Shown piece after piece: positions 1 through 61,920 of a DNA stretch of 64,000 bases; position 1 is the stretch's first letter, and each line of letters opens with the position of its first letter. Under the pieces are notes generated by a model that saw only the letters and a list, made by a program, of their open reading frames with translations, was not told where the DNA came from and made no database searches. The DNA is from Octopus vulgaris. Taxonomy: Eukaryota. The position numbers and the translations under genes are program-made. Where the stretch lies: contig OX597814.1 of assembly GCA_951406725.2 (NCBI GenBank), forward strand, positions 119,970,001 to 120,034,000. The letters run 5' to 3'.

Positions 1-322
1 CCAGGTCTCACTCCATTTGATTTTCACATGTGGAGTTATACAAAAGAGGTGTACAAGACAAAACCTCCCACACTAGAGGACTTGAAGACACGGATTTGGG
101 AGATTTTCAATGATATTCCAAACGATGTCCTGCAGAAGGTTGTTCATTCCATCCCTGACCGTTTGAGGAAACTGACTGACGCCACCGGTAATTACGTTGA
201 AATATGAAGATTTCTTTCATGTTTTCCATGCACCATGTATCATTGTCTTCATTAAATTTGTAAAAAGGAATATGGATTAATACCAATTTTTAAGGCATAC
301 TTACTTTTCATCCACCCGTTAT
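1..322 (+). mobile_element. 3' end of a Tc1/mariner-superfamily DNA transposon (transposase C-terminus plus probable right TIR), cut by the window edge
   Basis: Frame 1 (1-207) reads PGLTPFDFHMWSYTKEVYKTKPPTLEDLKTRIWEIFNDIPNDVLQKVVHSIPDRLRKLTDATGNYVEI*. This matches the SPDLTP.DF.LWG..K..VY..KP.T...LK..I C-terminal motif. A TIR-like 'ttttcatccacccgtta' precedes the (TA)n tract. Confidence 0.8.
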
Positions 323-799: not shown

Positions 800-902
<103 letters not shown>

Positions 903-1016
903 ATATTTCGGAATGGTCATATTGCCAGTTTAGCCAATAAAAACACACGCACTATATATTTGGTGTTATTTTGCTTCAGTGATATTTATTTTTTACATTA
1001 ATCTTAATCTTATTTC

Positions 1017-1061
1017 GGCCAAAGTTCTTTCGTCACACTCCTGTGACCGCATCAGTGGTCC
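1017..1061 (-). ncRNA. Variant minimal type I hammerhead-ribozyme fold in pLTR (copy 1)
   Basis: Minus strand GGACCA CUGAUG CG GUCAC AGGAGU GUGAC GAAA G AA C U U UGGCC: stem I CCA/UGG, stem II GUCAC/GUGAC, 2-bp stem III. The canonical A9 is replaced. Confidence 0.65.
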
Positions 1062-1564
1062 TTTGTTTTCTTCTCACTTACTTGTGTCTCTCCTTACTAA
1101 CCGTCAGCCATTTTGTATTTCTATTGTATGTCTTCATTTGCGCATGCTTATATCTCTATGTGCGTCTATGTTTATTTAGTGTGTGTGTGGGGGGGATGCC
1201 TGTAATATTTGTATCTTCTGGTTATATACATTCTTGTAATTTGTATTTTGTTTTTGTTGTTGTTGCTTTTGTTCTAATTTTGTTCATGTGTTTACATCCA
1301 CCCATTATTATCATTACATATGCTTGTATGTATGTATAACAACAATATTAGTAATAATAATAATAAATCTAATCGAAAAAAAAAAAAGAATATATATATA
1401 CATATATATATATACATACATATACATATATATATATATACATATATACACACATATATACACATATACATATACATATATATACACATATACATATATA
1501 TAGATATTCATTTCTATTTCTTTAATTACCTGTGTATTTATTATGTTTGCAGGATCCACTATTG

Positions 1565-3441
1565 TCATATGTTGTGGTGTGCGCTATTGCTCCATTCTAG
1601 TTTTCTATTCAGGCTAGGTTTATTTTCTATTATATGTGTAGCTTCTGTAATTTGTCTAATTGTTGCATCTGTTCTATGTGTGGACAATATCTTAATCTCT
1701 ATGTTATTGATTGATCCCCCATGTTCTTGTTCGGCGTGTTGGTACAGAATCGATGAGCTTTTACCTTCCTTGAGTTGTCTCCAATGTTCATTCACCCGCT
1801 CACCAATGCTTCTTGCAGTTTCCCCTACGTATGTTACTGTCTTGTTACTGCATCGTCCCTCTATACATCTTATACTATAGACCACATTTCTAGCTTTACA
1901 GTTTGTTTGTGGGCTAAATCTACATACAGTGCAATAGTTATCCGTACAGAGAGTTCTACTAAAAGGATAGGTTCTACCAATTATAGATCTGATAGGGTTG
2001 CCTGGCTTTTCAACAACCTTAATTCTTAGTTTAAGTTTATCTAGGGTCCTTCTAAAGCGGTACGCTAGTTCACCTCCAGGGGTGGTGTCAACGAACATGA
2101 CACTCTGGTATTTATGGCTATCATACCAAGAGTTGGCCTTCCCTATTTTCTTTTTTGTCCTTTCTATAGTGTTCCATGACTTGTTCCTATAGAGTGGGCA
2201 AATCCCATTCCTATCATTACATAATATATTATCAAATTTCTTCATGGCTCCTTTGTATACTCTGATCTTTCTTTATGGCTGTAACCTGAGAACTGCATGC
2301 GGTGAATGAAATACTGTATGTGTCTCTTTAATTCTGTAGGCTCGCACATGCGTGACACATTTCTCATTATTCTGACGAGGTCTGCCATCAAAATATTGAA
2401 TTTGGCATTGCCCGCAATGGCTGAGTTCCGGTGGATCAGGTATTTTGAGGCCATAGGTTTTGCATAGTATGAATGAAGGATTTGGGTTTTATTTTTCACA
2501 ATTTCTAGCCAGAGTTCAGTGTCTAGTACTGGTAGTCTATGGTTGGGGTGTTTAGTGGGGTAGTCTATTGTGACCTTAATACTCTGGTGGATGGAGTTAG
2601 CTATTTGCTGGATGCTCTCCATAGTATTAGTTTCTATTACTATATCAACATTACTCTCTTGTGGGGGTGCCTTTACTACTATATTGATATCATCAACATA
2701 GCGAGAGTACATGTTTACGAGTATGGATTTCTGCAGTAGGCATTCTTTAAGCCTTCTGTCCCACTATACCATGAAGAGGTTGGCCACATCACCAGCGATA
2801 CTAACACCGATGGCTGCCCCCTCGTCCTGGGCATATATTTTATTATTAAATTTAAATGTGTGGCCTTTTAGGGTAACTCTTATACTAGCTCCTAGTGCAT
2901 GTGCGATCATTTTCTTTACCTGATGGACATTTGCGGGGCTCCGTATGGCTCTGGTCCATCCGCGCCATCTTTCTATATGTGTCTTCCTAGCCATAGAAGT
3001 AATTGTAGGCGGTCTACCTCTTAAACATCTACTGGGGCAGAAACTACTAAGATTATGTTTATCTAAGTATTCACTATTATATGTCAGTCTAAGTAGGAGG
3101 CCCAGTTCTTCTGTGTCGACATTACAGAACTCCACCTGGCTCTCGTTGATCATCTCCACGCACTTCTCCACTGCAAAATCTACGTCAATCGATGGGTATA
3201 GGGATACCACATCCATGCTACCTACTATACATCCTGTCAAGTCACAAGTTTTGTTACAGTCACTGATCCTGCTTAGGAGATCTTCTGTGCTGTCATACAC
3301 ATCAGGTGACATCCTGATTATAGGGCGTATGATCATTGAGAGAAAGTAGGAGATTCTGTAATTGCTAGCGATATTCGCTCCACAGACTGGTCTTGTTGGT
3401 GGTCCTGCTATAGGGTCAGTAAAACCTTTATGGTCCTTGCG
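1565..3441 (-). pseudogene. PLE reverse transcriptase + C-terminal GIY-YIG endonuclease, disrupted by one nonsense codon and one frameshift
   Basis: Motifs RKDHK..GPPTRPVCGA, GSMDVVSLYPSI, GAAIGVSIAGDVANLFMV*WD (TAG at 2764-2766, likely from TGG), YSRYVDD, LPVLDTELW, MQFSGY. A 1-nt frameshift near 2265 restores ERIRVYKGAMKKF. It continues VMFVDTTPG, a Cys-rich linker, then [25 protein letters not shown]...RQITEA..I..NKPSLN. This joins ORFs 2764-3336, 2242-2712 and 1565-2245. Confidence 0.93.
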
Positions 3442-3631
3442 AAATAAGATTAAGATTAATGTAAAAAATAAATATCACTGAAGCAAAATAACACCAAATA
3501 TATAGTGCGTGTGTTTTTATTGGCTAAACTGGCAATATGACCATTCCGAAATATAACAATATCTGTTTCAACACACGACTTCACAAAAAAATCTTGCACA
3601 ACAAATATTTAAACGTATATATATATATATA

Positions 3632-4774: not shown

Positions 4775-5211
4775 TATGTGAAATCGTGTGTTGAAACATA
4801 TATTGTTGTATTTCGGAATGGTCATTTTGTCAGTTTAGCCAATAAAAACACACGTACTATATATTTCGTGTTATAAATTACACGAACGTATATAAACAGA
4901 AGATACACATATTACAGGCATCCCCCCCACACATTAACTAAACATAGTCGTACATACAGATATACGCATGCGCAAATGAAGACACATACAATAGAAATAC
5001 AAAATGGCTGACTGTTAGTAAGGAGAGACACACAAATAAGAAGGAAGAAAGCAAAGGACCAATGATGCGGTCACATGGGTGTGACGAAAGAACTCTGGCC
5101 GAAATAAGATTAAGATTAATGTAAAAAATAGATAATGCTGAAGCAAAGTAACACCAAATATATAGTGCGTGTGTTTTTATTGGCTAAACTGGCAAAATGA
5201 CCACTCCGAAA

Positions 5212-5222
<11 letters not shown>
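4775..5222 (+). mobile_element. Solo pLTR of the same Penelope family (4876-5222, + strand) with an inverted 5' segment (4775-4875)
   Basis: 4876-5222 is the reverse complement of about 897-1242. 4801-4873 is the reverse complement of about 5150-5222. Flanked by (TA)n on both sides. Confidence 0.88.
5056..5100 (+). ncRNA. Variant hammerhead fold (copy 2)
   Basis: GGACCA AUGAUG CG GUCAC AUGGGU GUGAC GAAA GAAC UC UGGCC. Stem II is intact with substitutions only in its loop; CUC triplet; C3 changed to A. Confidence 0.55.
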
Positions 5223-19339: not shown

Positions 19340-22300
19340 GTCATGTGGCGATAAGCCAAAGAAACCCATGGAAAACATATTTGAAGACATGTCAAGTTCA
19401 ACTGAAGGATCACCTACGAACACACAAGAGGAGTTCCTAAGTCTGCCGTATAAATAAAGTGTCTAAAAGAATAATTGATACACTTAGTGTGCAAAAAGAG
19501 GAGGAAAATGAAGGTAAAAGAAAAGTTTCGCCTCAGCAGCCGAGGTTAGAACCCGGTAACTCTCAACGAGTAAAACTGAAATAAAAAAAGTACAACACAA
19601 TGATGGGAAAGAACGGAAATGTGGTGAAAGTGCAAACACCAGAGAAACTATTACAATAGGATAGGGAAAAATGATAATTTACCAGACATATAACTTAAAA
19701 TGTTGGAAAATCGATAGGATGTCAGAAGAGGAAATAGAAAAATGTTTAAAAGCTATTTGGTGTGATATCGATTGCATAACAAGAGGGAAGAAACTCAGAA
19801 CAATAGAGGTGAGGATGAAAAATGAAGAAAGGGCGAAATATTACTCGGTGAAAACACTGTAAACAAATGTGACACTCATCCCCATGTTCATGGGGATAAG
19901 AATATCTAGAATAAGGATTGGAAGAACCCCTCCAGAGATAGATCCCATGTTGCTAGCGGCGGCTGTTATAATGAACCAGGACAAAATTACACGGATCTTT
20001 TCCTTTTGAACGGGCAGTTTTCAACACAATTTCTAGTTAACTAAACACTTTTAAACTTCGTATACTGGTAGAATGTGTCAAAATAAAACATTTTTTTCTC
20101 TTGGCTTTCTTGAGAAAATTGGAATTTGTAAGTTTAGTGTAGTTTAATTTTTCGAATTTTAACCAATCGATGGCCTCTATTGAGCTAAAATCATTTGCTG
20201 CGTCTAAAGCTGAGACAATATCCTGTCACTGTTATGTTTACGTACGGAAAGCGTGTGTATAAAATTATAGAATTATTTTGTTTGTTAATTGTTTAAATTA
20301 TTTTCCATTGCTTTCGTTCTTTTCTTAAGCAATGGAAAATAGTTTAAACAATACACGTGTATCTCAAAACAAAAATAAAACGAATAATTATAGACACACG
20401 CGTAACAATTAAATTAATTTAACAATTAAGAAAAAAACGAAACGCTAAAATTTAGGGTTAGGGTTAGGTTTAGAATCAGTGACAGGATGTTATCTCAGCT
20501 TTAGACGCAGAAAATGATTTTAGCTCAATAGAGGCCATCGATTGGTTAAAATTCGAAAAATTAAACTACCTTAAACTTACAAATTACAATTTTCTCAAGA
20601 AATCCAAGAGAAAAAAAACGTTTTACTTTGACACATTCTACTAGTATACGAAGTTTAAAAGTGTTTAGTTAACTTGAAATTGTGTTGAAAACTGCCGTTC
20701 AAAAGGAAAAGATCCAATTACACTCCTCCAGGCTTCAGTCACAGAAAAACAAATTGGACTGGACAGACCATCAATATGATCATAGAAGCAACACCCAAAA
20801 TTCTGGAAGAAATTTTAAAAAACTACAAATAGAAGAGGAGGCCCTCATAGTTTTTGTTGAGACACTAAAACCCAGATGTTTCCAATGTGGCGAGTTAGAC
20901 GTCATTTGTAATGAATGTATAGAAGAAGAGGAGGAGAAAGAAAAGGAGAGAAAAAGAAAGAGAAACAACATCAAACAAAAAGAAGATGCAGCCTACTACA
21001 CAATCCAAAGCGGCGCCGACGTCAGATTCGAGACCCAAGAAAGCTACGAAAAGGGAAAAAGACGAAAGAGGACTAGTGGTAGTTAATACGGATGACGCGG
21101 AATTAACGAGAGACTTCAAACTTAGACGAAATTTCAGAGATGGTGGCAGAAGCAAAGATTAACCGGGAAATATCGGTCGGCTTGCAACTCCGGCACTGGA
21201 GAAGCAAGTCGATGCCTTCAGAGTGCGTCGTAGGCCGTTGGACGGAGGGGCCGGTAAAGTTTCGAGGGGTCTGGTTTGAACCGGATCTCTAGGTAGAGAA
21301 GAACTGGGCCGAGATTTCGAGCAGGGTGGCCTTAGTCAAGACTTGGTCTTGGCGGTGGATGTCCCTGAAAGGGCAGGCGGAGGTAGCCAATTTGTTCATT
21401 GCATCAGTCATTACCTAACGCCTAACCGTCGTTCCTTGCCCGGATTCGTGGTTGACAGCTCTTCCATTTTTTGTGGAAGGGCTCGAAGCAGTTTGTAAGA
21501 CGCTCGATCTGTTGTCAAAGGCCGTTAAAGGGAGGACTAGCGATGCATTGGTTGTTGATGCTCAAATATGCGATGAGGTTGAGGCATCTCTGGATTTTCT
21601 TGGATGGCGAACGGTTGAGACCTCCGCTGGCGAAATAGATGTTTCCATCATTCGCTAGATTTTGTGGACATGAAGACTGCTGCTTTCGTAGATCAAGGTT
21701 GAGTGAGTGGCATACGGAGTGTCGTAAGGTCCTCTTGCTATTCTGTCCCTCGTGTAATGCCAGCGGTGCAGGTTCTACAGCATTTTTCTATAGAGGGTTA
21801 GTAGAGGCTGAATGTGACGATGGCCTGGGAGAGACCCGGAGTATCGGGGGTGTTCAACTTGACAGCCTGTTCTTTAGTACGTTTGGATTGAGAGCGCTGT
21901 ATAAATTCCGAAATACCTAGACTTGGCAATGTTACAGAAGTGCCTTACCCGTTCGGGATAAGCTTGCAATATATGGCAAGGTATGGCCAATACGCTTCAC
22001 CGACCTGTCCAAGATATGCGCGGGATAGGGAAACCGTCCCGCACGCTATTGTCCAGTGTCCGGAGGTATCGGAGATGTGGGCTTATGTAGAACACCTGTT
22101 GTCTGGTGCAGGAAGAGTACAGCTGTCGACTGAGTCAATTATAAAAATTGACCCACCTGAAGTTTTGTTAAATGAAGGTAAGAATTGTTTTGTCATGGTT
22201 GGAGCAACAGCGAAAGAGGTGGTATAGAAGACAAGGATGAAAGTAGCAAAGGCAGGCAACTTAATCTCTGGATTCACTTTACAAATATATTTCGCTTTAC

Positions 22301-25099: not shown

Positions 25100-27345
25100 T
25101 ATACTCAGGCCAATTAAGGGGAACAACACATTTGACTACTTCTTCACAAATAATGTGGACCTTGTACATAACGTGAAGATGACGCCAACAGCACTCTTAG
25201 ATGACTGTATTTTTAAGAATTAACTATGTATGGTCCCGCTCGAACTGCTGGTGTCTACCATATCAGGAGAACTCAAACATTTTCCAGCCTGAGTTTCTGT
25301 AATGCAAAATGGGAATCAATCCGCAAAGAGTTCCACAAACGAAACTGGTCCAACGTTCTATGTATGCAAGACATTGAATTGAAACCCCACCACTTTATGT
25401 TAACATTTTAAGCTATATGCACTAAATATACTCCAGAATGAAAAGCCTGCACACTGACAAACATGATTCACAGTCACAGAAACGTCCTTATGAAACGAAT
25501 GTCGATGGTCTCAAAGTAGCTGAGTAGGCAACTAAAGGATAGGGAGAAGTCTATTTTAATACGCACACTGCTAGAAATCGAAAGGCAAGAAAAAAATCTC
25601 TCACGAAAGGGAAAGAGCAGAGAGAGGGAGAAAGAGAAAGAGAGGAGAAGAGAAGAAAACTGTTGAAAGCATGATGACAAATCCCAAAGTTCTCTATAAA
25701 TTCGCAAATGAAACAGCCACAATAAAATATAAAATAGGATTATTTTGCAAAAGAAATGACTCACTGACAGCGTACTCAGGAAGAAGTTAGATGCTCTGAA
25801 CAATTTTAAAATGTCTTCAATTCCCCCCTTGGATACATGCAGATAAAAATCCGCCTGAATTCTTTAATATTGTAGCTCTAAAGAAGGAGGTGCTAGACAA
25901 TGATTACATCAGCATTGAGGATAACAACGGGCATAAATGAAATGAACTCAAGCTTCGAAACTGCTTCTGATGACTTTCTAATTATTCTGAAGTAAAATTA
26001 GCAGGCCTTGGTGAAACCTCTTCAGATACTTTAGCGAAGTTTCCTTGCAAGTGGTAAACTTCCGAAAAAGCTAAAACAAGGCATTGCGTGCCTTATCCAC
26101 AAAGGTGGGAGCAGAGCAGAGGCCAAAGACTACAAGCCAATCTCTCTAACTTCACATATCAGTAAAGTCATGGAGCAAATCATCAGAAAGAATTTCATAA
26201 TGTTCCTAGAATAAAATGACCTACTGAACAATACACAGCATGGCTTCCGTCCAGGACGAATCTGCCCCACATAACTTCAACAGCACTATGACTTAGTTTT
26301 GAAACAGCTGCTGGACCACTTGTTAGCGTGATATACCTAGACTTTGCAAAGGCATTTGATAAGGTAGATCACGGCATGATATATCATAAGGTACGAGACC
26401 TTGGCATTGCTGGTAAACTTGGAAACCCAAATCATAAGCGGCATCCCCCTAGGGAAGTGTCCTGGTGCCATTACTGTTCATAATAACCATCTTAGACATG
26501 TGCACGGTCATTTGGACAGCTACTGTCACTAGCTATGCCGATGATACAAAATTATCACAAGCAATAAAAAAACCAAGATGACATCGTAAGATTACATCGA
26601 GAACTGAATTCGATATACAAATGGGCCGAAATAAACAACATGCAGTTTAGTATACAGGACCGGAAAGCACTGCAATCCCAATGTTACAGGCACTCAAAGA
26701 TTTGGGGGTCAGTATGTAAAATGACGCATCATTTTATATGCACATTATAAAGATGGTAGCAAAGTTCAGGCAACTGGCAGGATGGATACTGATGTTCTTC
26801 AAGATAAAATACCAAGAAACTATTTTGACCCTGTGGAGATACTTTGTTCTCAGCTGTCTGGACTACTACTCCCAGTTATGGTCGCCGCCAAATTAACCAC
26901 AGAGCTTGAAGCAGTTCAATGCCACTACACTAAAAAGACTGAAACAGTGCAGCGGATGAGCTACAGGGATAGGCTGAGAAAACTGCCACTTTACTCCCTG
27001 GTGCGATGGCGTCAGAGATATACAATAGTCTATATATGGAAAACTCTAGAAGGGCTAGTACCTAACTTTGCCTTTGAATGTTATACAAATGCCAGAACTT
27101 GCCGCCATTATATTGTACCAACGATACCATCCACTCGATCTAAATTCAGTACCAGGTATTACAAATCTAAAATTCAGAGGCCCACAGCTCTTCACTGACC
27201 AACCAGAAAATTAAGAATTCTGCATAAGGTGGAAGTAGTTGTCTTCATAAAAGAACTAGAAATCCCCTCTCCACAATATCGAATGAACCAACAGCTCAAC
27301 ATGAGGTGCAGACGAAGGCAACGGAATCAAAGTCTCTTATACATG
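25100..27345 (+). mobile_element. Decayed CR1/L2-group LINE ORF2 (same family as the 14686 fragment)
   Basis: IHKGGSRAEAKDYKPISLTSHISKVMEQI, QHGFRPGR, IYLDFAKAFDKVDHG, SYADDTK, ELEAVQCHYTK, LYSLVRWRQRY. Confidence 0.9.
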
Positions 27346-32199: not shown

Positions 32200-32950
32200 T
32201 GAGTGATGACCAAATATAAAATGCGTACGTTTACTTGGTAAAATGTGAGTATTCTGAAGCTTAACAAATTCGATGATGAAATCGTCAACCGTCTTGCAAA
32301 GGCAACCAACACATTTGTCCAACTCCGTCATTGCCCATTGAATGAAAGGGGCATCAAATTTGACACCAAAGTACAGGTCTATAAAGCTGCCATACATACT
32401 ACTCTCTTGTATGGCTAAAGATCGTGGATACCCTATAGACGACACATTAACAAACTAGACATCTTCCACAAAAACTGCCTGAGGGCAATCTGTGGTTATG
32501 CACTAAAAGAGAAAATTTCTAATGCAGGCTTGTTTAGCAAATGTAAAATTAGTGGAATTGAAGGTTTCCTTATACAATCATAATTGCACCGGACTGGCCA
32601 TGTCGTCAACACTACTCATATACAGCCAGCTTGTGTTTGGAGAATGGAATGTTGGGCGAACATGGCTCAGATATAAGGACAGGCTGGACAGTAACCTCTT
32701 AGTGATGAAGATAGCTCACAGCACCTTTGAGCGAACAGCCTTGGTACGAACAAAATGGAGATCATTGTGTCAAAATGGTATTAAAAATGTTGTTGCAACC
32801 AGCATTAACAGGCTTCGAGGTGCAAGGCGAAGAATAAAAGCGGCTGCAAGTATACCACAAACACTGACCTCAAACTTGCAACATTTGTAGCTATCTTTGT
32901 ACATCTTTGGCGAGTTTCAAATGTCACATTCGACATAAGCATTATGAATG
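32200..32950 (+). mobile_element. RTE (BovB-like) LINE 3' fragment
   Basis: DDEIVNRLAKA, GIKFDTKVQVYKA..TLLYG*RSWIPYRRHINKLDIFHKNCLRAI, LVFGE....GRTWLRYKDRL. Confidence 0.85.
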
Positions 32951-36619: not shown

Positions 36620-36845
36620 GTCTTTCAGTGTGTGTTTGTGTCACTTACCACCGCTCGAGAAACGATGTTCGGTTGTTTACATCCCCGTAATCTAGCAGTA
36701 TGGGAAAACGACTCGATAGAATAAGTACCTGGCATTAGAAAATATACGGGTTTGATGTCTTCACCTAAGCCTTTCAAGTCGGTGCCCCAGCACGGCTGCA
36801 GTCCAATGACTGAAAGAAGTAAGAGATAAAAAACAAAAGATAAAA
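36620..36845 (+). mobile_element. 3' half of the microsatellite-containing octopus-type SINE
   Basis: gtttacatccccgtaa...gatagaataagtac...ggtgccccagcacggctgcagtccaatgactgaaa.aagtaa, homologous to 46460-46659. Confidence 0.8.
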
Positions 36846-36907
36846 CACACACATATACAAGTTGAGCCCAAAATTCAAGCTACTGTGCAGTATATTTGTA
36901 TGCATTA

Positions 36908-37472
36908 CGGTGGCGTTCTGGAAGAAACGTTAGCATGCCTGGCAAAATGCTTTGCGTATTTCGTCAGTCTTTACGTTCTGAGTTAAAATTCCACCGAGGT
37001 CGACTTTGCCTTTTATCCTTTCGGGGTCGATAAATTAAGTACCAGCTACGTACTGAGGTCGATTTAACCGACTTGCTCATTTTCCCCAAAACGTTGGGCC
37101 TTGGGCTTAGAATAGAAAATAATATTTCGTCTGTCTTTACGTTCAGAGTTAAAATTCTGCAGAGGTCGACTTTGCATTTCATTCATTCGGGATTGATAAA
37201 TTAAGTACCAGTTGCGTACTGGAGTCAATCTAATCGACTGGCCCTCTCCCCAAACATTTCGGGCCTTGTGACTAGAGGAGAAAAGAATCATTAGCACGCC
37301 GGGAAAAATGCTTAGCAGTATTTAGTCAGTCTTTAACCCATGAATTCATATTCCACCGAGGTCTTTCGCACTTCGAAGTTGATAACATGATCACCAGGCT
37401 AGCGCCGGGTTCAATTTAATCAATTTACCCCTCGCCTGAAACTGTTAACCTTGTGCCAGAAAGTAAAACCAA
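36908..37472 (+). mobile_element. Head-to-tail array of three SINE units (GGCGGCGAGCTGGCAGAA family)
   Basis: The unit 'tttcgtc.gtctttacgttc.gagtt.aaattc...gaggtcgactttgc...gataaattaagtaccag...gggccttg' recurs at about 36960, 37125 and 37320. Confidence 0.8.
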
Positions 37473-42199: not shown

Positions 42200-43190
42200 G
42201 ATGATATGTCACAATTTGAGTAACATCGGTAGGCTGGGAGAGTGGCTGCATGATTTCCTGAAGGGCCGAGGTCAGGCTGTCACAGCAAATGGTGCTCTCT
42301 CCGAAGTGTCACCAATCCACTGGGAACAGTACTGGGACCACTATTGTTTGTGGTTGCTCCCTCGCACATGCCCTCAGCCACAGGGTCCGCCACAGGCACC
42401 AGCTACTACGACGATACAAAAGTATCACAGGGGATCAAGGATCCTACTGATATCCTAAGACGGCAGAACGACCTGAATGCAATATATAAGGGGGCAGATG
42501 AGAATAATACGCAGTTCAGTGCCGCAAAATTTTAAGCACTCCACTATCAGCCCAAAAGCAAAGTACAACTGGAGTGCACGGCACCAATAGGCAATGTAAT
42601 CCCAGAGTACGTGACCAGGGAATCCACATAAGCAACGAGGCAACCATCCATGTGCACATTACTCAGATGGCAACACTAAATAGGCGGATCCTTAAATCCT
42701 TCAGGACCAGGAAGAGAGATACAATGCTTCTGCTTTGTAGAACCTTTGTCCTAAATCATCTGGATTACTGCACCCATATGTGGTCACCACAGAGCGTAAA
42801 AGTAATTGCGGAGCTAGAGGCGGTACAACCCCATTATACAAAGAATAAATACTCTGTAAAACACATGGGCGACTTGGAAGAGGATAAAGGAGCTGGGACT
42901 CTACTTCTAGGGGAAGATAAATGAGAGATATGCAGTGCTATGCATATCAAAAATATTGGAGGGTCTAGCTCCAAATTTCGGAATCAAAATCTACAACAAT
43001 CGCCAAACTGGGAGGCACTACACAGTAACAAAGTTCCTAGTTCTCCATCGAGGATACGAACCCAATATTTAATGACTTGGGATTCAAGGGACCACAACTT
43101 TTTAATGCCCTACAACAGAACATCAGGGATTTATCAGGTGTAGGCATGGAAGTCTTCAAAAAAACCTTTGAATTTGTTTTCCTGCCCTCC
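42200..43190 (+). mobile_element. Decayed CR1/L2-group LINE 3' portion
   Basis: GRLGEWLHDFLKGRGQAVTANG, GTVLGPLLF, SYYDDTKV, HLDYCTHMWSP..ELEAVQ. Confidence 0.88.
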
Positions 43191-43724: not shown

Positions 43725-43907
43725 CAACGGGCTTCTATCAGTTTTGGTAGACGGAATCTGAAAGAAGACCATCTCCCAAATCCATTCACGAGAAATTGGA
43801 CGGCCCGAGGCTATAGTAGAAACCACGTGCCAAAGGGTAGCATACAGTGGGACTGAATCCGGAATCATGTGGCTGTGAAGCAAGCACCTTTCCACACAGT
43901 CACTCCT
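43725..43907 (-). mobile_element. 5' half of the microsatellite-containing SINE
   Basis: Reverse complement of ggagtg.ctgtgtgg.aag...ttcagtcccactg...ccttggc..ttctactatagcctcggg. Confidence 0.75.
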
Positions 43908-44039
43908 TTGTGTGCATGTGTGTGTCTGTGTGTGTGTATGTGTGTGTGTGTGTGTGTGTGTATGTGTGTGTATGTGTGTGTGAGTGTGTGTGTTGCTACA
44001 ATGTGTTGATGAAGAGATCTAAAGCTATGATAACTAACA

Positions 44040-44580
44040 GTGCCCTGTGCCTTTCGTCTACATCATCAACAACCATGAGTTTTAGGAGCAGTCCGTGTTG
44101 GTAGAGCCATGTCCCGAACATTCCTGGAAGACCTGATCTATCAATCCTCATCAGCCACTCATCTGCTTGCTTTACAATACTGATGATATTGCTTGTGTCT
44201 GATAGCGACTTGTCAAACATCTTTCCGAGGTATTTAATAGGAGTTTCTTCTATTAACGGAATGGCCTCTCCTTGCACATGCAGCCTAATTTTCTTGGTTG
44301 CCTTAAACCCCACCATGACTAGCATGCTCCTTGAACTTTTGGCTTAAACCTCATTCTTGCCCATATCGCCATATCTTCTAGTGAAGTCAGCAGCCTTTTT
44401 GCATCCCCATGAGTTGCACTTGTTACTGTAATATCATCCATGAAGCCCCTGATTGAGTGCACACTGTTGCCTGATTCCAATGTTTATCCTTGGGCCTCTC
44501 TATCAGCAGTTGATATGAGGAGATTCATACCCATGATGAAAAGAATGGGTGAAGTCGTGCACCCGGTTATGATTCCTTTC
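44040..44580 (-). mobile_element. RT fragment of a restriction-like-endonuclease LINE (Hero/R2-group)
   Basis: GIITGCTTSPILFIMGMNL, GFMDDITVT, GEAIPLIEETPIKYLGK, IDRSGLPGMFGTWLYQHGLL. Confidence 0.8.
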
Positions 44581-45986
44581 TATATACTGTAGCAACACAC
44601 ACACACACATATACAGATGTATATATTTATATATACAAGAAAATGTATATATATTTGAGTATATATACACTTATTCCTTATATACGGTATTATTACCTAG
44701 GTGTTAGAATAAGCCTACAATAGAGAATTCCTTCACTCATCTCCAAGATACTAGAACCACAATCAGAAATGTGATAATACAAGTGATATAGACGTATCTT
44801 TTCCCTAACAATTTTAACTTTGCTAAATTCTTCTCTATCCCCAAATTAGAAATCCCAGTTTATATTGTAGCACCAATCTTTTCTACTGCAATATTAGTAA
44901 TTTTCCTTCACACAGCTCAGAATACAAGAACACGCTGAAAGTGAAAATTCGTGATTATATCCGAAAGTATAGCCAGAAGAAACCATTCCCTACGTTCAAA
45001 ATTATCTAAACACGAGAACATCATTTTCAACACACAGAGAAAAGCATTTCAGAGACATATTCTCGCTACAAAACATTAACAACCTGAGTCTTATAGAGCA
45101 ATTATCATCAGCGGTTCTGTCTCGAAGAGGCAATTACACAAACCCTGAAGTGACGCTATTTAACAACTTCTTTAGTAACGACAACCCTGACATCAGATTA
45201 CCTGTCGATGTGCAAGAATGGAAAATTATGTAGCTAAGAGATACATTGCCGAACAGCGTAACTAAATCCTTTATTATTTCATCCTCTATGAATCCCACTT
45301 AAAGTAATCATAATTAGCTGCTGCGTTAAAAGTTGAATATTTCACCACCAATACGGGGATCGCACTGCCGAAGAAAGGGCGGGTTTGCTCTTTTTCTTTC
45401 CATGATCTCCTTAGTACAGATATAAAATACATATTACTCAACAGCTATTGGGAACCAATGTGTATATCAAGAAAATTTGTTTATTCTTGTTTTCCGACGA
45501 TGAACTCAGACGCCTTTACGGTTTAGAACGCCTTCAAAATTTAATCTTCATTCAAGTATGTCTCTCTTACCTCCACCGATTAAAAACTGTGCTGGCACCT
45601 ATTTATAGACGTATTGATTAACATATGTGCAAACTACACCCCATTCTGGCTCACAAGCAAAAATAGATGCACGACCACACGATAGAGTAATATACTCATC
45701 AGAAAAGTAAAATGGATTAATGAGAAAAGAAACAAAAAAAAAAAACGTTCATTAAGCTAAAATACTACTGTTGGCATCATTTTATCTAAAGGGTTACATT
45801 TTCAGAAAAAAAAAAAAAATCATTTGATATTTCATTAATAACATCATGAATCTCCGTAGAAGACTGGTGATTGCAACAACTGGAGAGGATCCGAAAACAT
45901 TCTTTTTATTTACAAAGACAAAAGGAAAAAGAAAAAAAAATACTGCTAAATTTTTCATCCATCGTTCGACAGCGATTACAATGACG

Positions 45987-46396
45987 TACTCTTTTATTCT
46001 TTTACTTGTTTCAGTCATTGAACTGTGGCCATGCTGGAGCATTAACTTTAGTCGAGCAAATCGACACCAGGACTTCTTCTTTGTAAGCTTAGTATCGGTC
46101 TCTTTTGCCGAAACGCTAAGTTACGGGGACGTAAACACACAAGCATCGGTTGTCAAGCGATGTTGGGAGGACAAACACAAACACACACACACACACACAC
46201 ACACAAACATATATATTTATATATATATATATATATATATGTGGCTGTGTGGTAAGTAGCTTGTTTACCAACCATATGGTTCCGGGTTCAGTCCCACTGC
46301 GTGGCATCTTGGGCAAGTGTCTTCTACTATAGCCTCGGGCCGACCAAAGCCTTGTGAGTGGATTTGGTAGACGGAAACTGAAAGAAGCCCGTCGTA

Positions 46397-46447
<51 letters not shown>

Positions 46448-46832
46448 TTGTGTGTGTCTGTGTTTGTCCCCCTAGGATTGCTTGACAACCGATGCTGGTG
46501 TGTTTATGTCCCCATTACTTAGCGGTTCGGCAAAAGAGACCGATAGAATAAGTACTGGGCTTACAAAAGAATAAGTCCCAGGTTCGAGTTGCTCGATTAA
46601 AGGCGGTGCCCCAGCATGGCCGCAGTCAAATGACTGAAACAAGTAAAATAGTAAAAGAGATATATATACGACGAGATTCTTTCAGTTTCCGTCTACCAAA
46701 TCTACTCACAAGGGTTTGATCAGACCGAGAAAACAGTATAAAACAATTGCCCAAGGTGCAACGCAGTGGGACTGAACCCGGAACCATGTGGTTGGTAAGC
46801 AAGGCGTTTACCACACAGCCACCCCCACGCCT
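45987..46832 (-). mobile_element. Microsatellite-containing SINE (minus strand), split by a second copy
   Basis: 3' half at 45987-46180 and 5' half at 46668-46832, both on the minus strand, flank a + strand copy. Confidence 0.85.
46240..46659 (+). mobile_element. Near full-length microsatellite-containing tRNA SINE
   Basis: gtggctgtgtggtaag (A box), gggttcagtccc (B box), internal (TA)n(TG)n, tail gactgaaacaagtaaaa.agtaaaag. Confidence 0.9.
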
Positions 46833-46844
46833 ATCAAAAACTCA

Positions 46845-47055
46845 GGCGAAATGCCTATTTCTTTACAACCCACAAGGGGTTACACACAGAGGGGAGAAAC
46901 AAGGAGAGACAAACGGATTAAGTCGATTATATCGACCCCGAAAGGATAAAAGGCAAAGTCGACCTCGAAAGAATTTGAACTCAGAGACATAGCGACAGAC
47001 GAAATACCGCTAAGCATTTCGCCTGGCCTGCTAACGTTTCAGCCAGCTCGCCGCC
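46845..47055 (-). mobile_element. SINE (GGCGGCGAGCTGG family)
   Basis: Reverse complement begins ggcggcgagctggctgaaacgttagca and matches 60371-60580. Confidence 0.85.
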
Positions 47056-47647
47056 TTCACATCGTACAGATTCTACAGAGTTAATACAGCTTTGTCTTCA
47101 ATGGTTCCGATGTTCATTTAAGTATTATTGAGGAACTACTCTTCAGCATACTCTATATAACAGACTTTTGACACTACGTGTATTAATGCAGCACTGAAAT
47201 TCAATTCAGTACCGGCTCTTTATTGATTCCCAGCAAGTCTAATAGTAAAATTTTAGATACTGTTAACTGAGTCGTTTGGCCGAACAGATTATCTAAAGTT
47301 AGCATCCCTAGTAACAAATAATAATAGTTGAAGTGTCTCTTGATAAACAAAACACATATTTCAATCAATGGAAGTTACTTAAGATCTACAAATGTCATTA
47401 GAGTTGTTCTATATTATTTACGTAAGTACCATTATATATATCATTAAAAATGGTAAACTACAATTTTTGCGGATGATCGTTAAGTTCCAGAAAGTCTTCT
47501 TTGGATTACGTAACGGAATAAAAAAAAAATCAGAGAACAAGATGCTAAACATAGAAAAAACACATTGGCTTTGGAAAAGAAAATATCTGTTGGTTTGTTT
47601 ACATCACCGTCATCTAGTAGTTCGCCAAACAAACTGATAACATAAGT

Positions 47648-51027: not shown

Positions 51028-51030
<3 letters not shown>

Positions 51031-51619
51031 GTTTAAATATTTGTTGTGCAAGATTTTTTATGTGAAGTCGTGTGTTGAAACAGATATTGTTGTATTTCGG
51101 AATGGTCATTTTGCCAGTTTAGCCAATAAAAACACACGCACTATATATTTGGTGTTATTTTGCTTCAGTGATATTTATTTTTTACTTTAATCTTAATCTT
51201 ATTTCGACCAGAGTTCTTTCGTCACACTCCTGTGACCGCATTAGTGGTCCTTTGTTTTCTTCTTTCTTATTTGTGTCTCTCCTTACTAACCGTCAGCTAT
51301 TTTGTATTTCTATTGTATGTCTTCATTTGCGCATGCTTATATCTCTATGTGCGTCTATGTTTATTTAGTATGTGTGTGGGGGGGGATGCATGTAATATTT
51401 GTATCTTCTGTTGATATACATTCATGTAATTTGTATTTTGTTTTTGTTGTTGTTGCTTTTGTTCTAATTTTGTTCATGTGTTTACATCCACCCATTATTA
51501 TCATTACATATGCTTGTATGTATAACAACAATATTAGTAATAATAATAATAATAAATCTAATCGAAAAAAAAAATGTAATCGAAAAAAAATATATATATA
51601 CACATATATATACACATAT

Positions 51620-51690
<71 letters not shown>

Positions 51691-51852
51691 CATATACATA
51701 CACATATACATAGATATATATACATATATATAGTTATTCATTTCTATTTGTTTATTTATCTGTGTATTTATTATGTTTTCGAGATCCTCTATCGTCATAT
51801 GTTGTGGTGTGTGCTATTGCTCCATTCTAGTTTTCTATTCAGGCTAGGTTTA
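51028..51852 (-). mobile_element. Third copy of the Penelope family: complete pLTR plus the last codons of the endonuclease
   Basis: Colinear with 897-1622 and also carries the terminal extension seen at 3560-3616. Ends in (TA)n. Confidence 0.92.
51206..51250 (-). ncRNA. Variant hammerhead fold (copy 3)
   Basis: GACCA CUAAUG CG GUCAC AGGAGU GUGAC GAAA GAAC UC UGGUC: perfect 5-bp stem I GACCA/UGGUC, CUC triplet, G5 changed to A. Confidence 0.6.
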
Positions 51853-57213: not shown

Positions 57214-57894
57214 CATATGCACACACACACATATATATGTATACATATACATGCATATGTGTGTGCATCTAAGCATAAATAATATTACTTAAGTGCATTA
57301 ATTTATTTATATGTACACGCCTGTATGTATGAATATATTATACGGAGAGTTTTTTTTAAATAATGTTTAGTAAGTCTGTGAAATTTAGAGATCATATCCC
57401 TTACAGTGATACGATCGCTACACTCCATTTGCAATAATGGAAATGCTAATAATTAGGTTTCAAAACGTACTGCCAATTTGTCCTGTTGTTAGATTGGCAG
57501 TGTAGATAGCAAGTTCTTTGCATATTCTCTGTATGTTAAATAACCTCCTACTTTCAGTGAATAATTCTCTCACAAGTGTTTCTCTTGTGAAATTATTGAT
57601 TTATTTGACTATATAAAAAGGCCAAGTGTTTTAGGACTAGCATACGGAGGAATGTGTAGTTTACAAAAATGTTGCTGTAGCTTATTTTTGGAAAAGTCAG
57701 TGAGAAGTAAAATGAAGACAGGAATTACATTTTCCATGCACTTTTTTTTTATGTGATATCTCAAGTATTCTTGTCAGACCACCATAAAACCTGCTGTTAA
57801 TGATGATTATATCTAATTAATACTTTAAAGCAGACCATCATAGAAAGGCATTAAAGCCATTGTACCTTGTCTTAAGACAACAGTTTATAGACAT

Positions 57895-58047
57895 AAGCGT
57901 AGGAGTGGCTGGGTGGTAAGTAGCTTGCTTACCAAGCACATGGTTCCGGGTTCAGTCTCACTGCGTGACCCCTTGGTCAAGTGTCTTCGACTATAGCCAC
58001 GGGCTTTGTGAGTGGATTTCGTAGACAGAAACTGAAAGAAGCCCATC

Positions 58048-58082
<35 letters not shown>

Positions 58083-58661
58083 TATATACATATATACATA
58101 TACATATATATATACATATATATATATATATATGTATGTAGGTAGGTATATATATTAGGTATATATATCTCTCTTTTACTTGTTTCAGTCATTTGACTGC
58201 GGCCATGCTGGAGCACCGCCTTTAGTCGAGCAAATCGACCTCGGGGCTTATTCTTTGTAAGCCCAGTACTTATTCTATCGGTCTCTTTTGCCGAACCGCT
58301 AATGACGGGGACGTAAACACACCACCATCTGTTGTCAAGCAATGCTAGGGGGACGAACACACACACACAAACACACACACATACACACACACACACACAC
58401 AGATATATATATATATGTAAATATTTATGTATGCATGTATGTATGTGTGTATATGTTTGTGCGTTTGTGTTCGTTTCCCCAAGATCGTTGGACAACAGAT
58501 GCGGATGTGTTTACTTCACCGTAACTTAGCGGTTCGGCAAAAGAAAACGATATAATAAGTACTAAGCTTACAAAGAATAAGTCCTGGGGTCGATTTGCTC
58601 GACTAAAGGCGGTGCTCTAGCATGGCCAGTCAAATGACTGAAAGAATTAAGAGAGTAAAGA
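57895..58661 (+). mobile_element. Microsatellite-containing SINE (+ strand) with an opposite-strand 3' half (58168-58360) nested in its microsatellite
   Basis: 5' half at 57895-58048 and 3' half at 58455-58661 on the + strand. 58168-58360 is the reverse complement of the family 3' half. Confidence 0.85.
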
Positions 58662-58719
58662 TTATTTCTTTTGTCGTGGTTATTTCGATAAATTGAAATT
58701 GGCAGTTTTGCAATATAAG

Positions 58720-58850
58720 TTCCGCCGATGTCGACTTGTCCTTTCATCGTTTCGGGGTCGATAAATGAAGTACCAGTTGCGTTCTAGCGTCGATCTAATC
58801 GACGGGCCGCCTCCCCCAAAATTTCGGGCCTTATACCTAGAGTAGAAATG
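58720..58850 (+). mobile_element. SINE 3' fragment
   Basis: ttccgccgatgtcgactt..tttcggggtcgataaa.gaagtaccagttgcg...aaatttcgggcctt..cctagagtagaaa. Confidence 0.75.
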
Positions 58851-59058
58851 AATATAAGTGACATGCGAGGTGTAATTTATTAATAAAATATAATAAAACT
58901 ATAACAAGACTAAAAGGGAATTATGTAGAAGATGTGGATTTTAATTAATTGCAAACGTTAAAAAATAGAGAAAAAACCGTCTAAGAGTGTATTTGGATGC
59001 ACAAAATAGAACACAATCACTAGCGGTTGTCTAATAACGGAGAATGTTCTAATGCAAC

Positions 59059-59479
59059 GTAACTGGTATGTTTTCTGCTTAAACATTTTTCTTCCGGTTT
59101 TGAATTATGGAATTTCAATCATGTTTCGTGGTCTACTACCACAACAGCTCCTTTATAGGATCCAGTTAGCTCAAGACATCATCAGGAGGTACCACGTCCG
59201 CATTCGGCCCCTACTTAACTACCGTTTTGACGTGCCCCCATCCCCCTCGGGGGTGTCTTCAGCTCTGGTGTTGAGTGTATGTCTTCTTTCTCCTTCTGTT
59301 CGCTGGCCTCTTCGATGTAGCCTCAACGAGTGTTAGCGGGTGACTGTCTGTTTGTCAAATTTCCCTTTAAATACCTGCTGCTAGGCTCCAGCAGGCAGCC
59401 CCAGCCAGTTGTCACGTGACACTGTCTAAACTGTGTAACCGGTATGTTTTCTGCTTAAAAATTTTTCTTCCGGTTTTGA
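59059..59479 (-). mobile_element. 376-bp unit with a 45-bp terminal direct repeat; pLTR/retrozyme-like
   Basis: Direct repeat at 59059-59103 and 59435-59479. On the minus strand: GTCACGTGAC, TATTTAAAG, then CTGATGA...GAAACATG. A second copy lies at 29200. Confidence 0.6.
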
Positions 59480-59688
59480 TACAGTGCTGTATCAAGCATT
59501 TTATTTCTCAGTAAAAATTTTGCGCTTTATAATATAATTCTTCCATTTATATATTCTATAACATCATTTAACTGTCCGAATAGCAAGTGTAACATTTGCA
59601 CATAATGCACATCCTTGTATGCATCCAGTTTAACACCCATAGCACATTTTTGTATCATTTCTAGCCCTTGTTCCTGTTTTTATCACAA

Positions 59689-59690
59689 TC

Positions 59691-59722
<32 letters not shown>

Positions 59723-61760
59723 CATCATCATCACCAACATCATCATCATCATTATTGAAGTTGCACAGTATCCAATATTGTGATGTTGTAGATTGAGTGT
59801 AATGTGTGGACCGGAGGTTTGTACTTTCTGTCAAATCACAACCGGGAACTCAGACAGACACTACTTCATGCAATATACGTGCTGTTCCAAGTAAAGCCAA
59901 TTTTTTCGATGTACTAAAATTGTTGGCTATTACTAAAGTCCTCAGATGCTTTTATTCATGTTTCGTGGTAGTAAACACAATGCGCGGGTACGGTGACAAC
60001 AGGAACAAATTTTCTTTGACTGTCATAGCTGCCACATTATGGCGATCTCAAATTTCAGGTCACCATGTTAGTCGAGATTCCATGATAATATAGTGTTGCA
60101 CTGGCACTGCCATGGAGATTATTACCCAGCTCTTGCTTGTCCCTCCTGATGGCTACTAAATCTGGCCTTCGGTGCTGTAACACATTGTATGTTTGGAAAT
60201 CAAATTCCAGAGCTCATTTGCCTCTCCGTTTTTGTCCATTACATTTTCTGGTGAATATCAGTACCAAACAATCGTTACCTCGTATCTATACTTCGGGCAT
60301 AGTAGCCAGTGAAGGATTTTCTCTAATTTTCTGTGTTTGATCTTGTACTATTTGTGTTTTTCTCGTTTTAGGCGGCGAGCTGGCAGAAACGTTAGCACGC
60401 CGGGCGAAATAATTAGCGGTATTTCGTCTGCCGCTACGTTCAGAGTTCAAATTACGTCGAGGTCGTCTTTTCCTTTCATCCTTTTGGGGGTCGATGTAAT
60501 CGACTTAATCCGTTTGTTTGTCCTTGTTTGTTTGCCATCTCTGTGTTTAGCCCCATGTGGGTAGTAAAGAAATAGGTATTTCGCCTGCCTTTATATTCTG
60601 AGTTCAAATTCCGTCAAGGTCGAGTTTCCGTTCATCCATTTAGGGTCCATAAATTAAGTAGCAGTTGCGTACTGGGATCGATTCAATCGACTGGCCCCCT
60701 CCCCAAAAATATCAGGCTAGAGTAGAAAAAGATTGTTTTTCTTCTCCTCCTGTCTATTTTGATTAGTTCATTTAGTATCCAGTTAAGGATATTGTAACTA
60801 ACTTATAACGTGTACGGCTAGAATGTTGATGACTAGTGTTTTGCATTGAACTCTCTTTTCAATATCAGTCTAACATGTCTATAGTATTACTTTTTTATTT
60901 TCTCTTTCATTTGTGTGTGTTATATCTTATCTACTTCAACGATTTCCAAGTATTAGTATGTCTGGCTTTGGTCTAATTCTCTTATTTCATTTGTTTCATC
61001 TAGTGTGACGTTGCTACACTTCACTGGTTTTCCTCTTTTCAAGGCTTCTTTTGCACATTTTTCTAAGCCAAATTTCTTTGGTAAATCTATGTACTGCCTG
61101 TAGTTATGTTTCCAGCTGTTTATCATTTGTAGCATACAGTTCTAGGTCATCCATATATAAGGGGTGACTGATAATTTTGCCGTAACAATTTTATCCACAC
61201 CCAGTCCTGTTTAGCATTTCAAATAAAGGTGTCAGTGCCAAGCAGAAAAGGAGTGGAGAGAACGTGTCTCCAGGGAATATTCCTCTTCTAATGGGGATGG
61301 CTTTGAATTTTATGAGTCCCTCTTTTGTCCGGAGCTGTAGCACTCTCCGTCATTTATTCATGGAATGGGTTATATATCTTATGATTATTGGTGCTAACCT
61401 GTTCATAGCTGGTGTTTTTAGAATCCATGTATGGGAAATACTATCGAAACCTTTTCGGTAATCGATCCAAGTCATACTTAGAACCTTCTTCTTTCTGCGG
61501 TTGTCTTCAGTTATGGATTTATTGATCAGCAGCTGACCTTTACAACCGTATGAGCGCTTGCAGCATCCCTTCTGCTCTTCTGGAAACAGGTTGTTTCCTT
61601 CCAGATGCTTGCTCATTCTCTGTGATATTATTACAGTAAAGGCTTTGTAAATAGTAGGGAGACAAGTTACTGGTCTGTAATGTTGTGGGTTTGCTGTTTC
61701 AGTGGATTTTGGAATTAGGATAGTTTTTCCTACCGTGAGCCATTCAGTCATTGGCTCTGG
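59689..61760 (-). mobile_element. Dong/R4-clade LINE remnants: RT (about 60770-61745) and restriction-like endonuclease C-terminus (about 59800-60300), bounded by (ATC)n/(ATT)n
   Basis: WLTVGKTILIPK..PQHYRPVTCLPTIYK, EQKGC..SYGCKGQLLINK, WIDYRKGFDSISHTWI, HPLYMDD, KFGLEKCA. Endonuclease-like LQHRRPDLV, IISMAVP, KLALLGTARIL. Confidence 0.85.
60371..60732 (+). mobile_element. Dimeric SINE inserted in the Dong/R4 remnant
   Basis: ggcggcgagctggcagaaacgttagcacgccgggcgaaat...; a second internal unit starts near 60575. Confidence 0.88.
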
Positions 61761-61772
61761 CTCTGCAAGGAT

Positions 61773-61827
61773 GTCATCATCATCATCATCATCATCATCA
61801 TTATTGTTATTGTTGTTGTTGCTATCG

Positions 61828-61919
<92 letters not shown>

Positions 61920-61920
61920 A
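61773..61920. repeat. (ATC)n(GTT)n(ATT)n microsatellite
   Basis: Directly visible. Confidence 0.95.

What the first reader, a model, noticed from the sequence alone, without database searches (positions are those of the whole stretch)
1017..1061. Non-canonical hammerhead fold (CUGAUG-CG instead of CUGAUGA) conserved in three pLTR copies of a Penelope family
Seen: copies at 1017-1061 (-), 5056-5100 (+) and 51206-51250 (-) give the consensus GACCA CUGAUG CG GUCAC AGGAGU GUGAC GAAA GAAC UC UGGYC. Stem II is invariant while its loop varies. Stem I is perfect in copy 3. All three copies have CG where A9 is expected, so this is a family trait rather than decay. Stem III is only 2 bp and, unlike typical PLE minimal hammerheads, not palindromic. 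Established: PLE pLTRs carry minimal type I hammerheads. Inference: this is an unusual core variant that standard CUGANGA searches would miss.
Basis: partly seen in the sequence, partly recalled or inferred. Interest (0 to 1): 0.78.

Follow-up and report, generated by a model that had tools for sequence, protein, structure and literature searches.

The report
Altered hammerhead ribozyme in octopus retrotransposon
A recently multiplying jumping gene, likely from an octopus, carries a small hammerhead (self-cutting RNA) motif whose normally fixed core letter A9 became C in its young copies, which likely weakens cutting without stopping spread and gives a natural test of whether these elements need their ribozyme.

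Summary
Copy 2 has C3A and copy 3 G5A (private decay, about 1% of copies each); copy 1 has U17. They lie in the pLTR of a young Penelope-like element (Nematis-like by inspection; 98% to an Octopus vulgaris protein). 'CG' is two separate things. [quoted passage not shown] Genome-wide there are 3,195 C9 and 549 A9 exact matches in this family. A9 copies are older and basal, a sister family has A9, and all nine intact elements examined carry C9/U17. So C9 is a derived change fixed in the active lineage, not decay and not ancestral. Insertions end mostly 127 or 183 nt past the predicted cut and show no pile-up of 5' ends at it, fitting uncleaved templates. A distant relative independently shows C9 plus G with a U3-A8 core, so a tolerated variant remains possible. 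Cleavage is untested, and the key variant paper (Lünse 2017) could not be read. Verdict: new variant of a known kind, moderate interest.

The parts
1017..1061 (-). Minimal type I hammerhead motif, youngest subfamily (C9/U17). C3=1055, G8=1050, C9=1049, extra G=1048, stem II 1047-1042 with 1037-1032, G12=1031, A15.1=1028, U16.1=1023, U17=1022; predicted cut between 1022 and 1021
   Evidence: window 960-1200 is 100% identical in 40 of 40 scored genomic hits
899..1622 (-). 3' untranslated region/pLTR of insertion 1; ends about 124-127 nt past the predicted cut at a (TA)n run; holds the ATG that opens the ORF in tandem copies (+101)
1565..3439 (-). 5'-truncated PLE ORF (RT, CX4CxxC linker, GIY-YIG endonuclease), broken into three frames near 2250 and 2763
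   Evidence: (GIY-YIG E=5e-4, below the Pfam cut-off), compared with intact P0001
3440..3615 (+). Inverted short copy of the element 3' end (from +4 after the predicted cut to the +183 tail), ending at (TA)n; no hammerhead core
5056..5100 (+). Hammerhead motif, older C9/C17 copy with private C3A (5062) and a changed loop II
4775..5218 (.). Insertion 2: pLTR fragment 4875-5218(+) with an inverted 3'-end fragment 4775-4874(-), between (TA)n runs
51206..51250 (-). Hammerhead motif, C9/C17 copy with private G5A (51242) and a perfect 5-bp stem I
51030..51852 (-). Insertion 3: solo pLTR fragment with the +183 tail, ending at (TA)n

Best explanation
The motif is a minimal type I hammerhead in the pLTR of a young Penelope-like retrotransposon, in which the older core A9 (followed by an extra G) became C9 in the lineage that now holds most copies, likely weakening self-cleavage without stopping spread because insertion likely uses uncut RNA. 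Shown: position in the pLTR, 4.59-kb tandem units with an intact 1,310-1,312 aa frame, the age order A9/C17, C9/C17, C9/U17, and element 3' ends mostly 127 or 183 nt past the predicted cut at (TA)n. Inferred: the ribozyme works, if at all, as a dimer or with help from the element's protein; A9C disturbs the sheared A9-G12 pair that positions the general base (recalled); reverse transcription starts inside the RNA downstream of the motif; C9 spread by riding along with a successful master copy.
For: History: with positions 9 and 17 masked, mean pairwise divergence is 8.7% (A9/C17, n=25), 5.6% (C9/C17, n=43) and 0.7% (C9/U17, n=35). With the whole motif removed and sister family B as root, A9 copies form the basal grades and C9 copies nest inside. 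B copies found without using the motif have A9 in 12 of 13 and C9 in none; core plus stem II match family A at 24 of 24 positions against 66 of 82 in flanks (p=0.011), so the core was conserved earlier. Activity with C9: 9 of 9 intact elements carry C9/U17 at both ends. No footprint of cutting: 1 of 66 5' junctions within 1 nt of the site; 19 of 30 3' ends at +127 or +183. Four insertions carry the same C3 or G5 mutation in both copies, against about 1.8 expected if neutral, i.e. no depletion (weak). Literature: catalytic mutants of a Poseidon PLE hammerhead did not affect insertion in vitro, cleavage needed the element's protein, and no RNA-seq ends mapped to the site (PMC11167929 passages); Naiads spread without canonical hammerheads (PMC8557442 passages); mutations at most core positions cause drastic loss (PMC3088659 passage).
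Against: No cleavage data, and no measured A9C value was found in a held paper. A distant relative with an open ORF has the same C9 plus G (L186), which suggests tolerance. The rest of the core and stem II stayed unchanged through the C9 lineage, and one substitution cannot show relaxed selection. U17 is common in PLE hammerheads (24 of 56 in Fig S3 text, counted by hand), so it is not a second sign of decay. Support for the C9 clade is modest (67-82); one old-clade copy (L042) has C9 and one long-branch A9 copy (L115) falls among C9 copies. A religated circular template would also leave no ends at the site. Shared mutations in paired copies may be gene conversion or copied RT errors.
Confidence: 0.5

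Rival explanations
1. C9 plus G is a tolerated, working core variant. The extra G would slip into the position-9 slot next to G10.1 and pair with G12 while C bulges out, with the element's protein or dimer formation supporting the fold; cleavage still processes or circularises the RNA.
For: Same C9 plus G in L186 (46% amino-acid identity, 753-aa open frame), together with the known U3-A8 covariant core, 6-bp stem II, palindromic stem III and 4-bp stem I (3 of 20,000 shuffles give such a hit; fold z -2.7). C9 is seen only where the extra base is G, and G is the usual extra base in these relatives (L186, L187, L190, L198) but rare elsewhere (1 of 56). C9 also appears on older backgrounds (L042, L323, L432). 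The C9-G12 Watson-Crick misfold has only about 0.07 probability. All other core positions are intact in the active master.
Against: L186 is a single contig and may carry a private change. Other relatives show further core changes that look damaging (G12A in L190, G5A-like in L434), which fits a lax core as well. The slip model rests on recalled base-pair geometry and was not tested. No genomic footprint of cutting.
Confidence: 0.28
2. The fold is now kept as an RNA structure (protein binding, RT positioning, or translation control 101 nt before the ATG), not as a catalyst, so stems matter and position 9 does not.
For: Stem II invariant across families A, B and C. 5' junctions avoid the core/stem II stretch (1 in 27 nt, about 10 expected; scan-corrected p=0.009, GC-adjusted p=0.01) and cluster just 3' of it (9 in 12 nt, p=0.03), as expected if the hairpin forms on the template (post hoc).
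Against: The catalytic positions are conserved as strictly as the stem between A and B (12 of 12). An invariant stem gives no covariation. The junction gap may reflect microhomology preference.
Confidence: 0.14
3. A9C was favoured: weaker cutting preserves full-length template and helped the C9 lineage expand.
For: C9 copies outnumber A9 by about 6 to 1, and C9 occurs on more than one background.
Against: Older copies are undercounted by exact patterns; about a dozen other changes were fixed along the same lineage; succession of masters explains the counts without selection.
Confidence: 0.08

Closest known systems
Minimal type I hammerheads of metazoan PLE pLTRs (Cervera & de la Pena 2014, PMC4209133; read: main text parts 1-2 of 4, supplement parts 1-2 of 3)
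   Same: In the pLTR, one per repeat; extra nucleotide between 9 and 10.1; G10.1-C11.1; long stem II; short stem I; 1-2 bp stem III needing a dimer; C17 or U17
   Different: C at position 9 (all 56 listed examples have A9, but their descriptor required the core); extra base is G (1 of 56; consensus H); centre of stem III is AA rather than self-complementary
Small hammerhead variants of PLEs that cleave as dimers (Lunse, Weinberg, Breaker 2017; title and citation only, text not held)
   Same: Same element class and dimer logic, by title and by the review PMC6765202 (passages, section 11 part 2)
   Different: Unknown whether an A9C or C9+G variant is already listed there; this is the main open point for novelty
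PAc Poseidon element of Anolis (Frangieh et al. 2024, PMC11167929; passages)
   Same: Two defined 3' ends with a tail between them, AT-rich targets, hammerhead upstream of the RT start sites
   Different: PAc has a canonical C3-G8 core overlapping the ORF start; here the ATG is 101 nt after the site, the tail is about 56 nt, and the protein is Nematis-like
Natural hammerhead core variants (Perreault et al. 2011, PMC3088659; section 8 and passages)
   Same: Rare natural core changes with low but detectable activity (U3-A8, A6C, U15.1-A16.1, insertions)
   Different: No position-9 substitution is named in the text read; Figure 5 and supplements were not seen
Nematis clade of EN+ PLEs (Craig et al. 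2021, PMC8557442; passages and supplement alignment rows)
   Same: C-terminal GIY-YIG, CX2-5CxxC linker with a short spacer as in Nematis rows, (TA)n targets, tandem and inverted copies
   Different: Long Asn-rich N-terminal region (1,312 aa frame); clade not tested by a tree with reference sequences

Membership tests
Hammerhead ribozyme (type I) | C3 U4 G5 A6 N7 G8 and G12 A13 A14, A15.1-U16.1, H17 | tested here: met
   Copy 1 and 3,195 genomic matches; not met in window copies 2 and 3 (C3A, G5A)
Hammerhead ribozyme (type I) | A9 | tested here: not met
   C9 in 3 of 3 window copies and 9 of 9 intact elements; met in 549 older copies
Hammerhead ribozyme (type I) | Stems I and II around the core, supported by covariation | tested here: inconclusive
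   93% of cells paired on 10 copies; stem I has 3 pairs with double changes (16 of 500 shuffles), stem II never varies; covariation score reached by 46 of 500 shuffles
Hammerhead ribozyme (type I) | Stable stem III as a monomer | tested here: not met
   2 bp closing a 2-nt loop; absent from predicted folds; a dimer helix with a 2x2 A-A loop is unfavourable alone (+2.4 kcal/mol)
Hammerhead ribozyme (type I) | Site-specific self-cleavage after position 17 | not testable with these tools
   No raw RNA reads on offer; genomic junctions show no excess at the site
Rfam hammerhead families | Covariance-model match | tested here: not met
   No hammerhead family among 137 matches at E<=1 in the window
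PLE minimal hammerhead (Cervera 2014) | Located in both pLTRs flanking an RT-EN ORF | tested here: met
   Two copies about 4.59 kb apart around a 1,310-1,312 aa frame in 9 elements
PLE minimal hammerhead (Cervera 2014) | Extra nucleotide between 9 and 10.1; G10.1-C11.1 | tested here: met
PLE minimal hammerhead (Cervera 2014) | Palindromic 15.2-16.2 and loop 3 | tested here: inconclusive
   15.1/16.1 and 15.2/16.2 complementary, central AA not; family B is self-complementary with G-U
EN+ Penelope-like element | Single ORF with RT and C-terminal GIY-YIG, pLTRs, tandem/inverted 5'-truncated copies | tested here: met
   (Pfam scores weak: GIY-YIG E=5e-4, RVT_1 E=4e-3 on P0002, none on full P0001)
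Nematis clade | CX2-5CxxC linker with short spacer before the CCHH endonuclease | tested here: met
   P0001 compared by eye with Nematis and Neptune rows
Nematis clade | Placement in the RT tree | not tested

The most novel reading that the evidence does not exclude
C9 followed by G is a recurrent, catalytically working re-wiring of the hammerhead core in a Nematis-like PLE clade (this octopus family and, independently, L186), in which the extra G replaces A9 as partner of the general base G12. Thousands of such ribozymes would be invisible to CUGANGA searches, and the natural series A9, C9, C9/U17 in an intact active element would show directly how PLE ribozyme strength is tuned.
Probability: 0.25. 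Interest if true: 0.7.

Novelty: new variant of a known kind. Interest (0 to 1): 0.42.

Why it matters
The role of hammerheads in Penelope-like elements is open: processing signal, protein-assisted switch, or passenger. Here a very young element with intact copies changed a normally fixed core base partway through its expansion, and all stages remain in one genome. If C9 is dead, it shows in a natural setting that an element spread to thousands of copies without a working ribozyme. If it is active, it widens the hammerhead consensus at a position next to the general base, and descriptor searches have undercounted these RNAs. Either result needs only a simple cleavage assay on three natural alleles.

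Tried and rejected
Rfam scan: no hammerhead match; all strong hits were (TA)n look-alikes of microRNA families. C9 as copy-by-copy decay: rejected, since C3 and G5 mutants number 45 and 34 against 3,195 intact C9 matches. C9 as the ancestral family state: rejected. Amplified dead sub-lineages (C3A, G5A, C3G): not found; the tandem C3G pair in L376 has no ORF between its copies and looks like a local duplication, so it was dropped from the paired count, and in L375 only one of two copies has C3G. U17 as decay: rejected. C9-G12 misfold as the dominant structure: not supported. Junction pile-up at the cut site: not found. Sequencing runs: no RNA holder listed; four guessed-RNA runs laid were contigs and cannot show ends. 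Relatives in viral contigs: none in two scans; one in genome contigs. Literature searches for A9 substitutions returned nothing useful; seven look-ups, for five papers, were not held and one recalled id gave an unrelated paper. The mutagenesis paper PMC9901934 (passages; supplement list only) gave no per-base value for position 9. PMC11014351, PMC6155905, PMC1636495 (passages) and the 2026 retrozyme preprint (part 1 of 5) added nothing on position 9. Earlier scan findings: none in three look-ups. No protein structure was predicted, as it does not bear on the question.

Full report
Observation. The three motifs are at the stated places. All read C then G between the CUGAUG-type core and stem II. 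Stem II is 6 bp with a 4-nt loop. Predicted folds show stems I and II but no stem III, and their energies are not unusual against shuffles (z -0.9 to -1.8). Rfam has no match.

Context. Copy 1 lies in the 3' region of a 5'-truncated element with RT and GIY-YIG remnants at 1565-3439 on the minus strand and an inverted 3'-end copy at 3440-3615. The genome is 2.8 Gb, and the 241 nt around copy 1 are 100% identical in 40 of 40 scored hits out of 607 candidates. Locus L122 holds a complete unit: two motifs 4,598 nt apart around a 1,312 aa stop-to-stop frame. Of 12 further loci chosen for long open frames, 8 had frames of 1,310-1,312 aa flanked by two motifs; with L122, 9 of 9 carry C9/U17 at both ends. 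The closest named protein is 98% identical and labelled Octopus vulgaris, so the host is likely that species or close kin. The short-spacer CX4CxxC linker resembles Nematis rather than Neptune rows in a published alignment; this is by eye only.

What 'CG' is. [quoted passage not shown] The G is therefore the known extra base, and the only real departure is A9C. Exact-pattern counts: 5,884 stem II+GAAA sites (control 17); 3,195 with C9, of which 1,396 have U17; 549 with A9 in the same family. Among older copies found by a downstream motif rather than by the hammerhead, 36 of 51 read CG, 9 AG, 3 TG and 3 other. In three other assembled runs, labelled organisms A, C and D, A9 is 18, 13 and 16% of summed depth and C17 65, 93 and 91%; organism E shows one contig, with A9. 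Summed contig depth is a rough measure.

Direction of change. With positions 9 and 17 masked and loci selected for identity left out, mean pairwise divergence outside the motif is 8.7% for A9/C17 (25 copies), 5.6% for C9/C17 (43) and 0.7% for C9/U17 (35). A tree of 53 family A copies with the whole motif cut out, rooted on 6 copies of sister family B, has A9 in the basal grades and C9 nested inside. Support for the C9 group is 67-82. L042 has C9 in an old clade, and the truncated A9 copy L115 sits on a long branch among C9 copies. Family B copies found without the motif (14 of 30 span it, 13 usable) have A9 in 12, G in 1, C in none. Core and stem II match an old A copy at 24 of 24 positions against 66 of 82 aligned flank positions (p=0.011). 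Stem I shows three double changes across 10 copies of families A-C, stem II none, and overall covariation is weak. So the core was conserved in the deeper history and C9 is a derived change fixed in the master lineage. G5 and C3 mutants total 34 and 45, about 1% each, so window copies 2 and 3 are ordinary decay.

Is the RNA cut? In 30 young copies, 13 end at +127 and 6 at +183 past the predicted cut, mostly at (TA)n (found by a motif at +79, so ends before it could not appear; the copies found by the hammerhead pattern also all run past the site). Two end points with a tail match the internal RT starts described for the Anolis element, where hammerhead mutants did not affect insertion in vitro and cleavage needed the protein. 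Of 135 copies, 99 had a 5' junction within 250 nt upstream to 79 nt downstream of the site; of 66 distinct junctions between -100 and +75, one lies within 1 nt of it. Junctions avoid the core/stem II stretch (1 in 27 nt; scan-corrected p=0.009) and cluster just 3' of it; this was noticed after the fact and may reflect hairpin formation or microhomology. The sample upstream of -35 is incomplete. Both copies of one insertion share rare variants at 0.0012 per site (11 events, 43 pairs). With about 770 multi-copy insertions (scaled from a hand count of 24 in the first 100 sites), 1.8 paired C3/G5 mutants are expected and 4 are seen: no depletion, but gene conversion or copied RT errors could give the same. 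None of this excludes a religated circle.

Relatives. Of 19 metagenome loci, three gave a full relaxed match after the ORF: L189 (A9, extra C), L198 (A9, extra G) and L186 (U3-A8, C9, extra G; 46% protein identity, 753-aa open frame; 3 of 20,000 shuffles). By eye, L187 has A9, extra G and a flipped 15.1-16.1 pair, L190-193 a G12A-like core, and L434 a decayed one. The second C9+G is the strongest point for tolerance, but it is one contig, and the range of core changes fits a lax core equally well.

Mechanism and odds. Most likely (0.5) the motif is a dimer- or protein-dependent hammerhead weakened by A9C and carried along by a master that inserts from uncut RNA. That A9 pairs with G12 in a sheared pair and that A9 changes usually cost activity is recalled, supported only generally by PMC3088659 and PMC9901934. 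A tolerated variant with the extra G taking the A9 slot gets 0.28, a purely structural role 0.14, selected down-tuning 0.08.

Novelty. A member of a known element class with a known ribozyme type; the A9C core is a variant not found in the texts read. Lunse et al. 2017, which catalogues such variants, was not held, and figures and several supplements were not visible, so the variant may be in print. Interest 0.42.

Noticed in passing
L186:2489-2542; L187:4950-5005; L190:5140-5185; L434:2530-2575: Relatives of this PLE clade show several hammerhead core variants (U3-A8 with C9, flipped 15.1-16.1 pair, G12A), mostly with G as the extra base, suggesting a clade-wide lax core.
   Followed up: partly
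L186:2560-2600; L189:1730-1770; window 905-960: A TGCGTG-containing motif followed by an ATG and then (TA)n lies downstream of the hammerhead in distant relatives as in the octopus family; it may be the protein-binding or RT start signal.
   Followed up: no
L042, L323, L432: C9 on older pLTR backgrounds, more often than private mutation would suggest; second origin, mosaic templates or gene conversion are unresolved.
   Followed up: partly
L176-L177 (G000:C19:14370800-14387500): Three head-to-tail units about 4.59 kb apart plus an inverted copy, as expected from repeated copying of one template.
   Followed up: no
L032, L116, L250, L252, L257, L258: Many short insertions are fold-back pairs with junctions near the hammerhead, often with short rearranged patches of element sequence.
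   Followed up: partly
P0001 residues about 250-510: Long Asn/Ser-rich low-complexity region in the N-terminal half of the ORF.
   Followed up: no
window 61350-61940 (-): A 196-aa frame resembling a non-LTR RT fragment (YRPVTCLPTIYK, QKGC, WIDYRKGFDS motifs; family recalled as RTE-like, not searched).
   Followed up: no
window 26725-27198 (+), 42508-42924 (+), 32507-32890 (+): Short frames resembling C-terminal parts of other non-LTR retrotransposon proteins (by eye).
   Followed up: no
window 19993-20715; 36773-37363; 43772-47056; 57893-60717: A 240-bp inverted repeat pair (95%) and clusters of a dispersed 130-220 bp repeat family in both orientations.
   Followed up: no
window 1-200: Sequence that looks by eye like the end of a Tc1/mariner-type transposase remnant.
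   Followed up: no
L434: A PLE fragment sits in a contig titled as a bacterial MAG, probably host-animal contamination.
   Followed up: no
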